Shown here piece after piece: positions 18,801-24,800 of a DNA stretch of 64,000 nucleotides. Numbering within the stretch: position 1 is the stretch's first letter; each line of letters begins with the position of its first letter. The notes beneath the pieces were generated by a model, which had not been told where the DNA came from, did no database searches, and saw only the letters and a program-made list of their open reading frames with translations. Both the position numbers and the translations under genes were made by a program. Origin of the DNA: Mizuhopecten yessoensis (lineage: Eukaryota); contig NW_018408440.1 in NCBI RefSeq assembly GCF_002113885.1, forward strand, positions 1,458,016-1,522,015, given 5' to 3'.

Positions 18801-21800
18801 ATCCCTCTGTATTGAGATAGTTCTGTGTATCATATTGTTTTATGTAGATGAGAAGTTCTACTGTATTTACTCTAATGGCTGTTGAACAGGAGAAGAAGTT
18901 CGGAGCTGCGGGAGAAACCATCCTTGTGGAGGAGTTACTAGAGGGGGAGGAGGTGTCTGTATGTACATTACACACTCCATCGAACAGTTGTAAAATATAG
19001 TCACAAAATTGTCTTTTAATAGGTTCCATTTTTTTCAAATTTATGAATAATGTTTCAATTTGGTTGTAAATTTAGAATTTAATGTTTACAAGTTAAGTGA
19101 TTTTAAGATAAAGATTGAAAAATAAACAACTTCATCAGCACACAAAGACAATATCAATTTGGATATTATTTCATAATTTCGTTACATGGTATAATATTCA
19201 TGCTTTAATAATTTTTCCAAAACTATATGTTAACTCTGAATCTTATTCGTTATAATTGACATTAAATAGTTGTTATGAATCAAACGTGTTCCAGTGTTTG
19301 GCGTTCACTGACGGTACTACAGTTGCTATGATGCCACCTGCTCAGGATCACAAAGCATTGAATGAGGGAGACATGGGACCAAACACAGGGGGCATGGGAG
19401 TTGTCTGTCCCTACCCAAAGGTAAACTACCACAGGTGTGGTCTGTCCCTACCCAAAGGTAAACTACCACAGGTGTTGTCTGTCCCTACCCAAAGGTAAAC
19501 TACCACAGGTGTGGTCTGTCCCTACCCAAAGGTAAACTACCACAGGTGTGGTCTGTCCCTACCCAAAGGTAAACTACCACAGGTGTTGTCTGTCCCTACC
19601 CAAAGGTAAACTACCACAGGTGTGGTCTGTCCCTACCCAAAGGTAAACTACCACAGGTGTGGTCTGTCCCTACCCAAAGGTAAACGACCACAGGTGTGGT
19701 CTGTCCCTACCCAAAGGTAAACGACCACAGATGTGATCTTCCCCTTCCCAAAGGTAAACTACCACAGGTTTGGTCTGTCCCTACCCAAAGGTAAACTATC
19801 ACAGGTGTGGTCTGTGCCTACCCAAAGGTAAACTACCACAGGTGTTGTCTGTCCCTACCCAAAGGTAAACTACCACAGGTGTGGTCTGTCCCTACCCAAA
19901 GGTAAACTACCACAGGTGTGGTCTGTCCCTACCCAAAGGTAAACGACCACAGGTGTGGTCTGTCCCTACCCAAAGGTAAACGACCACAGGAGTTGTCTGC
20001 CCCTTCCCAAAGGTAAACCACCACAGGTGTGGTCTGTCCCTACCCAAAGGTAATCTACCACAGGTGTGGTCTGTCCCTACCCAAAGGTAAACGACCACAG
20101 GAGTTGTCTGTCCCTACTCAAAGGTAAACTACCACAGGAGTTGTCTGTCCCTACCCAAAGGTAAACGACCACAGGAGTTGTCTGTCCCTACCCAAAGGTA
20201 AACGACCACAGGAGTTGTCTGTCCCTACCCAAAGGTAAACGACCACAGGAGTTGTCTGTCCCTACCCAAAGGTAAACGACCACAGGAGTTGTCTGTCCCT
20301 ACCCAAAGGTAAACGACCACAGGAGTTGTCTGTCCCTACCCAAAGGTAAACGACCACAGGAGTTGTCTGTCCCTACCCAAAGGTAAACTACCACAGGAGT
20401 TGTCTGTCCCTACCCAAAGGTAAACGACCACAGGAGTTGTCTGTCCCTACCCAAAGGTAAACGACCACAGGAGTTGTCTGTCCCTACCCAAAGGTAAACG
20501 ACCACAGGAGTTGTCTGTCCCTACCCAAAGGTAAACGACCACAGGAGTTGTCTGTCCCTACCCAAAGGTAAACGACCACAGGAGTTGTCTGTCCCTACCC
20601 AAAGGTAAACGACCACAGGAGTTGTCTGTCCCTACCCAAAGGTAAACTACCACAGGAGTTGTCTGTCCCTACCCAAAGGTAAACTACCACAGGTGTGGTC
20701 TGTCCCTACCCAAAGGTAAACTACCACAGGTGTGGTCTGTCCCTACCCAAAGGTAAACGACCACAGGTGTTGTCTGTCCCTACCCAAAGGTAAACGACCA
20801 CAGGAGTTGTCTGTCCCTACCCAAAGGTAAACGACCACAGGAGTTGTCTGTCCCTACCCAAAGGTAAACTACCACAGGAGTTGTCTGTCCCTACCCAAAG
20901 GTAAACTACCACAGGTGTGGTCTGTCCCTACCCAAAGGTAAACTACCACAGGTGTGGTCTCTCCCTACCCAAAGGTAAACGACCACAGGTGTGGTCTGTC
21001 CCTACCCAAAGGTAAACGACCACAGGAGTTGTCTGCCCCTTCCCAAAGGTAAACCACCACAGGTGTGGTCTGTCCCTACCCAAAGGTAAACGACCACAGG
21101 TGTGGTCTGTCCCTACCCAAAGGTAAACGACCACAGGAGTTGTCTGCCCCTTCCCAAAGGTAAACTACGGTCTACCACAGGTGTGGTCTGTCCCTACCCA
21201 AAGGTAAACGACCACAGGTGTTGTCTGTCCCTACTCAAAGGTAAACTACCACAGGAGTTGTCTGTCCCTACCCAAAGGTAAACGACCACAGGAGTTGTCT
21301 GTCCCTACCCAAAGGTAAACGACCACAGGAGTTGTCTGTCCCTACCCAAAGGTAAACGACCACAGGAGTTGTCTGTCCCTACCCAAAGGTAAACGACCAC
21401 AGGAGTTGTCTGTCCCTACCCAAAGGTAAACGACCACAGGAGTTGTCTGTCCCTACCCAAAGGTAAACGACCACAGGAGTTGTCTGTCCCTACCCAAAGG
21501 TAAACTACCACAGGAGTTGTCTGTCCCTACCCAAAGGTAAACTACCACAGGTGTGGTCTGTCCCTACCCAAAGGTAAACTACCACAGGTGTGGTCTGTCC
21601 CTACCCAAAGGTAAACTACCACAGGTGTGGTCTGTCCCTACCCAAAGGTAAACTACCACAGGTGTGGTCTGTCCCTACCCAAAGGTAAACGACCACAGGT
21701 GTGGTCTGTCCCTACCCAAAGGTAAACGACCACAGATGTGATCTTCCCCTTCCCAAAGGTAAACTACCACAGGTTTGGTCTGTCCCTACCCAAAGGTAAA

Positions 21801-24800
21801 CTATCACAGGTGTGGTCTGTGCCTACCCAAAGGTAAACTACCACAGGTGTTGTCTGTCCCTACCCAAAGGTAAACTACCACAGGTGTGGTCTGTCCCTAC
21901 CCAAAGGTAAACTACAGCAGGAGTTGTCTGCCCCTTCCCAAAGGTAAACTACCACAGGAGTTGTCTGTCCCTACCCAAAGGTAAACTACCACAGGTTTGG
22001 TCTGTCCTTATCCAAAGGTAAACTACGGCATGAGTTGTCTGTCCCTACCCAAAGGTAAACTACAGCAGGAGTTGTCTATCCCTACCCAAAGGTAAACAAC
22101 CAAAGGAGTTGTCTGCCCTTTCCCAAAGGTAAACTACCACAAGAGTTGTCTGTCCCAACCCAAAGGTAACCTACCTAAGGAGTTGTCTGCCCCTACCTAA
22201 AGGTAAACTACCACAGGAGTTGTCTGTCCCTCTCGAAAGGTTAACTTCATTATGTACCACAGGTGTGGTCTGTTACAGGTTTGCTTCACTAAAGAAGATG
22301 TATTGTTTTTGTGACTCGCCATTTTTAGCACACCTATTCGAAGAATAGGGGGGCGAATGTAGTCACCCTGGCGTCGGCGTCCCACCTTCCGAGGTTAAAG
22401 TTTTAGTGCAAGTTTTTCCAGACAGTGTTGGATCTTTTGAGTTTGTCATTTATATCGAGTGTAAGCAATGTGCTGGACCATATTTTCATATTTTATGGCC
22501 CAAAAACAGCTTAATTGGACTTAGTTAAATTTGTGGTTCAAGTTTTTGGGCAAGTTTTTTTGTGAAGTGTTTGACAACCACCATTAATACGCTGTTGTCT
22601 ATTATAAGGTTAAAGCATTTATATGCAGTGTTAGCAATGTTCTGGGCAATATTTTCATATTTTATGGCCCAAAAACACCTTAAATTGGAATTGGTTTAAT
22701 TTGAGGTTCAATTTTTTGTGCAAGTTTGGTTGGGTAGTGTTGAACCACCACCATCAATAGGCTGTTGTCTATGATAAGGTTGAAGTATTTGTATTGAGTG
22801 TAAGCAATGTGTTGAACCATATTTTCGTATTTTAGCGTCCAAAAACAGCTTTATTGGACTTTGTTAATTTCTTAACAATCACTTCACATAGATGTTTCTA
22901 CACATTTAACAGTCCTTGAAATATCCTGGTGTTAAGTGAGGTGGCAAATAAAATGACAGGCACTATATCAACGTTTTACTATACATGTGTTTCTATTGAT
23001 AGTTGCAGTATTATAATAACATACATAGGCGAGCTATGCTGTTCTTGCTCTTGTTGAGTATGGCAGTACATTTAGATAGTTATTAGGGTTGACCTAAAAC
23101 TCAAACACCAAACACATAAGCGTTTAATATTAAAGGTGTCAAAGATAGAACTGGCCAAGATAAAGACGAACATACTACAGAAAGCAGTGGATGGAATGAG
23201 GGAACGAGGAACACCATACAAAGGTATAGGGTGTGGAGTAGGAGAATTAAAAATAAATTATTTAGAATCCAGTGTTTTTTACAACAGCCAGTTCCTTCAT
23301 AAATTTGGAAAATATAGCAATATTGTTATTAGCTCACCGGGCCCGAAGGAGCTTATGCTGTACTGTGGCGTCCATCTTCCGTCGTCTGTCCATCAACTTT
23401 TTCTTTTGAACGACTTCTTCTAAAGAACTGGGACCTTAGGTCATGATATTTAGCCAGTAGGTACCTGGGATAGAGTGCTTTAAAGTTTCCTCATTAAAAT
23501 GACCTTAAATATGGTAAAACTTTCAAACAACAAAATCTTAAGAACTGTTTGGTCCAGAGTCATGATACTTGGGTATGTTATGTAGACCAGCTGTGTGAAT
23601 CGTTTCCTTTTTTAATACAGTAATGAGGTCAAATGTCAACTTTAAGTGCTAGTCAGGGGTCAAAGGTCAACATGGGTAAAAAGCTTTAAAATTACAATTT
23701 CAAATTTTAAACAACAATATCTTGAGAACTGTACTATTTTTGCATGAAGAATTATACTAGCCTGTATTTGACTCTAAAACTATAGACAAAAAACCACATT
23801 TTGACTGCTATCTGAAGGTATAGATTTAGAGTGAATTAACAGGGAACACAAAATTGACATAGGGTTGGAGTTAGTATACACAGAAAAGTATTTGCCTGTT
23901 GTATATATCTAATGCTAAATATTGTGAATATAGAACTATTCAATTTCATCTTCTTCCACAGGTGTGTTATATGCTGGTATAATGCTGACTTCAGAAGGTC
24001 CAAAGGTGCTCGAGTTTAACTGTAGGTTTGGGGATCCTGAGGCACAGGTCAGTGAACTCAAACTTTAGTGTTATAATCTAGATAATATGCACAGTGGAAT
24101 ATCAGTTGATTTAATAAATATTGACATCTCAATGACATTGTATGATGACAAGATTAGAGCTTAATGTTTATTCTTCCCATTTGTTACTAATAACTTCAGT
24201 ATTAATGATTATAGCCTGGAGAAGAGTCTTCAGATCTCGGTAAAATTTATTGTCAAATCTTATGTTAACCTTTAATACTGTTCTGTATTCCATTGTGGTT
24301 TCTGTTTCTATAACAACTGGTATGTTGCCTAGGCAATCCTGTCCCTGATGACCTCTGACCTGTTTGACACCTGTCTGGCTTGCACAAACAGCAGCTTGAG
24401 CGAACACTGTCCAGTGTTTGACGGTCAAAGCTGTGTGACTGGAATTGTAGTGGCCAGTGGAGGCTATCCAGGATCCTATAGGAAAAGGCTGACCATCACA
24501 GGTGTAATGTTGCTTATTTTAAAGATCATTAGTGACCTCCGAAAAATGTATCTCAAACCAATCTTATTTTATTTTTATTTTGTATATTTAATGGATTACC
24601 AGGATTATTTTGGGGGTTTAAGTGTAAATGCCAAAAAACTGTGTCGACTTTATATAATTATCCACACAATGGTTTATATATGAAAGTGCACACAGTTGTT
24701 AACGTAGATTCTGTTTAATCCCGAAAATAATCATGTTTACCCCCTTATAATTGATTCAAAACAGGACTGGACCGAGCTGAATCACACGGCCTAACAGTGT

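What the first reader, a model, noticed from the sequence alone, without database searches (positions are those of the whole stretch)
19397..22275. About 77 copies of the real 5' splice site stacked behind GART exon 6
Nearly every 37-bp unit reproduces the true donor context CCCAAAG|GTAAAC, and most also carry CACAG|G. Using the 2nd or 3rd donor shifts the frame (+37, +74), and any later donor includes the in-frame TAA at 19496-19498. Only the first donor therefore yields full-length GART. How the spliceosome selects it, and whether copy number modulates GART output through NMD, is an open question.
Basis: partly seen in the sequence, partly recalled or inferred. Interest (0 to 1): 0.7.

Follow-up and report, generated by a model that had tools for sequence, protein, structure and literature searches.

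The report
Repeated splice donors in scallop GART
In a scallop's purine-synthesis gene GART, a 37-base piece covering the end of exon 6 and its splice signal is repeated about 77 times into the next intron, but the assembled transcripts seen use the first signal, so it is likely a tolerated example of a repeat type already known from human and lancelet genes; a smaller repeat of the same kind behind exon 3 may be the one that disturbs splicing.

Summary
In detail: 76.8 copies of a 37-bp unit (24 exon + 13 intron bases) follow GART coding exon 6, with 77 donor-like sites. Of these donors, all but the first give a premature stop. It is a splice-site-spanning minisatellite ('mirage' in amphioxus; 37-bp VNTR of human F7, where first-donor use was tested by mutation). 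Transcript contigs from two studies join donor 1 to exon 7; no joint from another exon-6 donor was listed, but the data are shallow and NMD was not blocked. Such arrays are common in this genome: 4 of 20 GART exon ends, 3 of 98 myosin/ALDH exon matches, and the scan reported the same thing before on other DNA (SOUL, ANKLE2). Copy-number control of GART through NMD is unsupported, not excluded (ABCA7 precedent). The better lead is the 73-82-bp array behind exon 3: one contig joins its first copy to exon 4 and two run from intron 3 into exon 4, which would fit leak at strong, widely spaced donors. Verdict: new member of a known kind, low to moderate interest.

The parts
19295..19420 (+). GART coding exon 6 (126 nt); authentic donor AAG|GTAAAC after 19420
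   Evidence: joint to exon 7 in contigs of X1 and X5
19397..22246 (+). 37-bp minisatellite, 76.8 copies, 24 unit types; unit = last 24 nt of exon 6 + first 13 nt of intron 6; 76 further donor-like sites; block duplications inside, diverged units at the 3' end
19496..19498 (+). In-frame TAA reached by read-through to donors 4-77
22256..22273 (+). Partial last copy carrying the GGTGTGGTCTGT motif, the possible intron-side seed of the first duplication
   Evidence: seed role inferred
23136..23223 (+). GART coding exon 7 (acceptor for intron 6)
15709..43512 (+). Whole GART coding region, 20 exons, 3033 nt
   Evidence: 0 differences to P0001
17628..18110 (+). Second array of the same kind: end of exon 3 (donor after 17678) plus five copies with GTAAGT/GTAAGC donors 73-88 nt apart, in 73-82-bp units; copies keep a Cys codon that the exon has lost
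31593..32927 (+). Third array: 36-bp unit over the exon 17 donor (after 31604); 52 CAG|GTAA sites from the donor through intron 17, with further patches at 36909-37280 and 40842-40991
43465..44233 (+). Fourth array: 63-bp unit copying the end of exon 20 with its stop codon

Best explanation
This is a minisatellite that copies the exon 6/intron 6 boundary of scallop GART about 77 times; the assembled transcripts seen are spliced at the first donor, so the array is likely tolerated intron filler and not a regulatory switch. Shown: the unit anatomy, the stops behind every other AAG|GT donor, use of donor 1 in two studies. Inferred: (a) origin by a slippage or repair duplication of 37 bp, probably helped by two 10-of-12 matching motifs 37 bp apart (exon GGAGTTGTCTGT, intron GGTGTGGTCTGT), then growth by unequal exchange; (b) donor 1 wins by position: it is the first working donor behind the exon's acceptor (exon of 126 nt against 163, 200, 237 ...), as in human F7, and the 37-nt spacing lies under the roughly 45 nt at which duplicated strong donors switch fully to the downstream site in HeLa cells; (c) rare use of a later donor gives a premature stop that NMD would remove, which hides leak and lets the array persist. 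Copies beyond the first few are predicted to add no competition, so copy number would matter little.
For: 2815-nt contigs in X1 and X5 (two studies, depth 19.2 and 23.1) run through exon 6 to 19422 and on into exon 7 letters; their length equals exactly 18081-18317 + exons 4-20 with first donors at exons 6 and 17, both ends falling on the first repeated 30-mer. Array-derived contigs are 37-81 nt at depth 2-6.6; in X1 6.63 spread over about 23 copies per 31-mer is about 1.5% of mRNA depth per copy, if those animals carry a similar array. Copies are not masked by structure: opening energy 3.5 kcal/mol for donor 1, 3.0-5.2 for the 19 copies folded of 76, so position, not sequence or fold, must decide. 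F7 precedent; mirages; spacing rule (PMC3413131). Common here: 4 of 20 GART exon 3' ends; 3 of 98 myosin/ALDH exon matches, 58 arrays in 224 kb. Both seed motifs persist as unit classes, 30 and 26 of 77.
Against: Contigs drop rare variants and NMD would hide leak, so exclusive use is not shown. X10, the third contig run, showed only an unspliced piece over the donor (19146-19429, depth 5); raw reads were too few (9 laid in X24; no exon depth in X19 and X22). Only the first three units were laid. The mechanism papers are mammalian. The two seed motifs differ only at synonymous third positions (both read GVVC), so they may instead be old and new alleles of the exon. GART has more such arrays than uniform placement predicts (4 against 0.31; 3 against 0.28 without the focal one, P about 0.003), so 'chance filler' may not explain where they arise.
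Confidence: 0.8

Rival explanations
1. The exon-6 array is a dosage dial: longer alleles draw U1 and splicing to later donors or slow intron removal, the products are destroyed by NMD, and GART output falls with copy number.
For: Every other AAG|GT donor gives a premature stop. ABCA7: a 25-bp VNTR that includes the exon 18 donor shows retention of one unit, and the paper reports splicing that changes with length (PMC5954066 passages); CBS and 6-16 use the next two pseudo-donors (as cited in PMC1557585). Array sequence is present in all three contig runs laid.
Against: Main contigs are unbroken through donor 1 in two studies and array contigs are at about 1.5% per copy in X1; these may be pre-mRNA or DNA. 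In F7, inactive upstream sites shift splicing only to the next working site and efficiency falls with distance, so distal copies should not count.
Confidence: 0.12
2. The array is real but much shorter or differently ordered than assembled; the 77 copies are partly a gap-filling product.
For: Runs of six identical units (222 bp) and repeated blocks (units 28-36 = 51-59; 7-13 = 61-67); a 206-bp orphan contig of units that is not an exact part of the window array. No long reads were laid.
Against: 24 unit types with diverged edge units, as in natural minisatellites; unit variants also appear in independent RNA-type runs; no N in the array. The orphan contig may be the other haplotype.
Confidence: 0.1
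3. Each unit acts as a CAG|23-nt|GT micro-exon or recursive splice site, giving a ladder of isoforms or a nursery for a new intron.
For: CACAG|G occurs 69 times and is followed by GT in 37; mirages were proposed as a route to intron gain (PMC3087553).
Against: No pyrimidine tract before the CAG (sequence); 14 nt between a donor and the next CAG is too short for an intron (established knowledge); 23 nt shifts the frame; no such joint.
Confidence: 0.03

Closest known systems
Human F7 intron 7 37-bp VNTR (Borensztajn et al. 2006, PMC1557585; seen: abstract, introduction, first results sections = parts 1-2 of 6, passages of the discussion)
   Same: 37-bp unit whose first copy spans the exon/intron boundary; identical pseudo-donors follow; the first is used.
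   Different: F7 has 5-9 copies and 4 exon bases per unit; here about 77 copies and 24 exon bases; polymorphism and pseudo-donor competence are shown for F7, not here.
Amphioxus 'mirages' in Adh3, globin, troponin C, PGBD5 (PMC3087553 and PMC3902484, passages; the original Adh3 paper not seen)
   Same: Minisatellites spanning exon-intron boundaries in a marine invertebrate, several per gene, units of 10-160 bp, no aberrant mRNA reported, homogenised centre and diverged edge.
   Different: Copy numbers given for the globin arrays are 2-6; here a mollusc, 77 copies. Length instability not tested here.
Human ABCA7 intron 18 VNTR (PMC5954066, passages); CBS intron 13, 6-16 intron 2, LMNB2, PDGF (as cited in PMC1557585)
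   Same: VNTR that includes the donor; use of the next unit gives a frameshift and premature stop.
   Different: Leak is shown for ABCA7, CBS and 6-16; at GART exon 6 none was seen.
Duplicated 5' splice sites in HeLa cells and extracts (Hodson et al. 2012, PMC3413131, passages)
   Same: Gives the rule that may separate the GART arrays: strong duplicated donors 45 nt or more apart are spliced at the downstream site.
   Different: Two-site constructs in human cells; not tested in molluscs or long arrays.

Membership tests
Splice-site-spanning minisatellite (mirage / F7-type) | Head-to-tail array of minisatellite-size units | tested here: met
   37 bp x 76.8, 93% matches
Splice-site-spanning minisatellite (mirage / F7-type) | First unit spans a real exon-intron boundary | tested here: met
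   Exon 6 ends at 19420 inside unit 1
Splice-site-spanning minisatellite (mirage / F7-type) | Splice signal reiterated in the copies | tested here: met
   74 of 77 sites AAG|GTAAAC
Splice-site-spanning minisatellite (mirage / F7-type) | Authentic (most upstream) donor is the main one used | tested here: met
   Contigs in 2 of 3 contig runs; presence only, no read counts
Splice-site-spanning minisatellite (mirage / F7-type) | Derived from the host gene, not a dispersed repeat family | tested here: met
   61 exact 24-mer matches in the genome: 59 here, 2 on a 206-bp contig of units; exact matches only
VNTR (length-polymorphic) | Copy number varies between alleles or cells | tested here: inconclusive
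   Orphan contig and variant units in other runs hint at other alleles; no length measured
F7-type functional pseudo-donors | Next copy takes over when the first donor is inactivated | not testable with these tools
   Needs minigenes
Splicing-modulating VNTR (ABCA7-type) | Use of downstream unit donors in transcripts | tested here: inconclusive
   None listed at exon 6 in 4 runs, shallow data; one contig fits this at exon 3
Splicing-modulating VNTR (ABCA7-type) | Splicing or expression tracks allele length | not testable with these tools
   Needs genotyped animals with RNA

The most novel reading that the evidence does not exclude
Scallop GART is a natural experiment on donor arrays: closely spaced copies (34-37 nt, exons 6 and 17) are silent, whereas the strong, widely spaced copies behind exon 3 (73-88 nt; two pair with U1 far better than the authentic donor) divert or stall splicing of intron 3 in a large share of transcripts, or swap sequence into the coding exon. 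Splice-site-spanning minisatellites, present at a few percent of exon ends and perhaps seeded there preferentially, would then be a genome-wide source of splicing loss and exon-end gene conversion in bivalves, governed by unit length and donor strength.
Probability: 0.25. Interest if true: 0.6.

Novelty: new member of a known kind. Interest (0 to 1): 0.27.

Why it matters
The exon-6 array by itself adds a very long example to a class known from humans and amphioxus. If the contrast with the exon-3 array holds, one housekeeping gene would offer a built-in test of two conflicting rules of 5' splice site choice (first site wins, against downstream site wins when strong and far enough apart), and a genome with such arrays at a few percent of exon ends would allow that test over very many loci with existing RNA reads.

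Tried and rejected
Laying four raw RNA runs on 22900-27900 to read what joins exon 7: swamped by intronic repeats, two runs had no exon depth, no row for 23136 among those shown (103 loose-end rows not shown). No listed holder run was on record as RNA; the contig runs X1, X5, X10 are RNA by the tool's guess, though their contigs are spliced. Shares of 0.26-0.32 in 9 of 14 such runs would fit the intron-3 tail (0.33-0.36 predicted, 0.16-0.19 for exons only), but only two of the nine were laid and the list is ranked by share, so I do not count them. RNA structure as the selector of donor 1: rejected. A 3'-over-5' bias of arrays: seen in GART (4 of 20 against 0 of 20 tandem arrays) but not clear in the 98-match sample, where arrays also touch acceptors; not claimed. 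Enrichment at exon 3' ends in the unbiased sample: 3 against 1.0 expected, P = 0.08; not significant. One of 99 matches (C80408) was dropped unfetched as a likely duplicate. No database protein with the copy-1 version of the exon-3 end: 0 of 3 cluster members. Literature: searches listed no bivalve paper on such arrays (only 8 of 597 hits seen; most subscription journals are not held), which is weak evidence of absence. ORF listing of 44300-64000 did not identify a neighbouring gene.

Full report
Observation. The array is there as described: 19397-22246, period 37, 76.8 copies, 93% matches. A pattern scan gives 77 donor-like sites, 74 of them AAG|GTAAAC and 70 with the exact context CCCAAAG|GTAAAC; CACAGG occurs 69 times. 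The exon in front is identical to part of Mizuhopecten yessoensis GART (P0001), and 20 exons of the window translate to that protein with no difference; the exon is coding exon 6 (19295-19420) and exon 7 starts at 23136. The unit is the last 24 bases of the exon plus the first 13 of the intron. It is private to this gene as far as exact matches go: 59 matches of a 24-mer here, 2 on a 206-bp contig that holds only units.

Consequences of each donor. Donor 1 gives 1010 aa; donor 2 stops in exon 8 (314 aa), donor 3 in exon 7 (282 aa), donors 4-77 at the TAA at 19496 (279 aa). All these stops lie far before the last junction and would be NMD targets (recalled rule; not tested in scallop).

Which donor is used. 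Four runs were laid on 18250-19510, which includes the first three units. In X1 and X5 (two studies) a 2815-nt contig at depth 19.2 and 23.1 covers exons 4, 5 (short acceptor) and 6 and leaves at 19422 into exon-7 letters, that is at donor 1. Its length is reproduced to the base by intron-3 tail from 18081 + exons 4-20 to 43512 with first donors throughout, both ends lying on the first repeated 30-mer; so the exon-17 first donor is used too, by inference. No loose end at donors 2 or 3 was listed. Array-only contigs are 37-81 nt long at depth 2-6.6; for X1 that is about 0.29 per copy, some 1.5% of mRNA depth, if the array is similar in those animals. X10 had only an unspliced piece over the donor and X24 only 9 raw reads; one search gave nothing usable. 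So donor 1 is shown to be used and to dominate; exclusivity is not shown.

How it likely works. The copies are identical over the U1-binding site and are not more buried in structure than donor 1 (3.5 against 3.0-5.2 kcal/mol, 19 of 76 copies folded), so position must decide. That is what was found for the 37-bp VNTR of human F7: pseudo-donors work when upstream ones are mutated, only the most upstream working one is used, and efficiency falls with distance (PMC1557585). Work with duplicated strong donors found the opposite, downstream use, rising from about 30 nt and complete at 45 nt or more (PMC3413131); 37 nt and a middling donor (U1 duplex -6.8 kcal/mol, range of authentic GART donors -3.0 to -14.0) sit on the low side of that rule. 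Origin: the exon motif GGAGTTGTCTGT and a 10-of-12 match GGTGTGGTCTGT, found again in the partial last copy, persist as the two main unit classes (30 and 26 of 77); a microhomology-seeded duplication fits (class of mechanism: PMC13167724, search listing only), but both motifs encode GVVC and may be two alleles of the exon. Block repeats and diverged last units fit growth by unequal exchange.

How common. In GART itself the 3' ends of exons 3, 6, 17 and 20 are copied in tandem, 4 of 20, against 0.31 expected from uniform placement of its 10 arrays (TRF starts the exon-3 array 15 nt behind the donor, the overlap is). In 98 of 99 myosin and aldehyde dehydrogenase exon matches elsewhere in the genome, 3 have an array over the donor (95% interval 0.6-8.7%), one more has a single extra donor copy, and at least one has an acceptor-side array; 58 arrays cover 26 of 224 kb, and 3 against 1.0 expected is not significant. 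Match edges are approximate and one of the three was judged by eye. Earlier notes of this scan describe the same thing in SOUL and ANKLE2 (not checked here).

Known kind. [quoted passage not shown] Human cases run from silent (F7, LMNB2, PDGF) to leaky by one or two units (6-16, CBS as cited; ABCA7). The exon-6 array meets the features I could test; length polymorphism was not measured. My searches listed no bivalve paper, weak evidence. No supplements were read.

The better lead. Behind exon 3 lie five copies with GTAAGT/GTAAGC donors 73-88 nt apart; two pair with U1 at -10.3 against -5.6 kcal/mol for the authentic donor, and any read-through stops at once (138 aa). In one search no run listed the authentic exon 3-exon 4 joint: X10 joins exon 4 to 30 letters that match only copy 1 (17731-17760), X1 and X5 run unbroken from intron 3 into exon 4, and one X24 read does the same, while intron 4 has no such cover. 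Readings: second-donor use and retention; an allele whose exon end was replaced by copy 1 (X10 differs from the window at other places too; the copies keep a cysteine codon found in 6 of 6 other species' rows and lost in this exon); a new 82-nt intron between AG|GT sites; or a start inside intron 3. That an unbroken contig means the spliced joint was rare or pruned is my inference from how such assemblers work (recalled); the stretch laid did not include exon 3. It rests on three contigs and one read.

Verdict. Real, correctly described, a new and long member of a known class, most likely neutral at exon 6 (0.8). Interest 0.27; the exon-3 contrast has probability about 0.25 and would deserve about 0.6.

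Noticed in passing
window 17628-18317: 73-82-bp donor array behind exon 3; one contig joins copy 1 to exon 4, two contigs and one read run from intron 3 into exon 4; copies keep a conserved Cys codon that the exon has lost.
   Followed up: partly
window 31593-32927, 36909-37280, 40842-40991: 36-bp array over the exon-17 donor, spread in three patches through a 9.7-kb intron; 52 CAG|GTAA sites; the 7 later donors translated all truncate at 869 aa.
   Followed up: partly
window 43465-44233: 63-bp array copying the last coding bases and stop codon of GART into the 3' UTR region; one database model (P0122) has a different C-terminus here.
   Followed up: partly
window 18848 and 18890: Two acceptors for exon 5; the upstream one adds 14 residues absent from other species; contigs in X1 and X5 use the short form, one X24 read reaches the long one.
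   Followed up: partly
L057 (G000:C3864:390322-390776), L071 (C76639:155104-156933), L048 (C1138:513170-513276): Donor-spanning arrays in myosin genes: 33 bp x 13.7 with CAG|GTRAGT donors, 55 bp x 33.4, 35 bp x 3.1.
   Followed up: partly
L060 (G000:C4496:195569-196766): Acceptor-side 38-bp array (31.6 copies) ending at a myosin exon, with a 73-nt copy of the exon start embedded upstream.
   Followed up: no
window 44773-61593: Several further minisatellites (74, 31, 44, 44, 51 bp units); some units hold donor- or acceptor-like words, but no gene was identified around them.
   Followed up: no
window 22900-23045, 23439-23730, 26719-27045: Intronic dispersed repeats that draw many RNA reads from other loci.
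   Followed up: no
L003 (G000:C9012:1-206): Orphan contig of 37-bp units differing by 0-3 bases from window units; other haplotype or unplaced piece of the array.
   Followed up: partly
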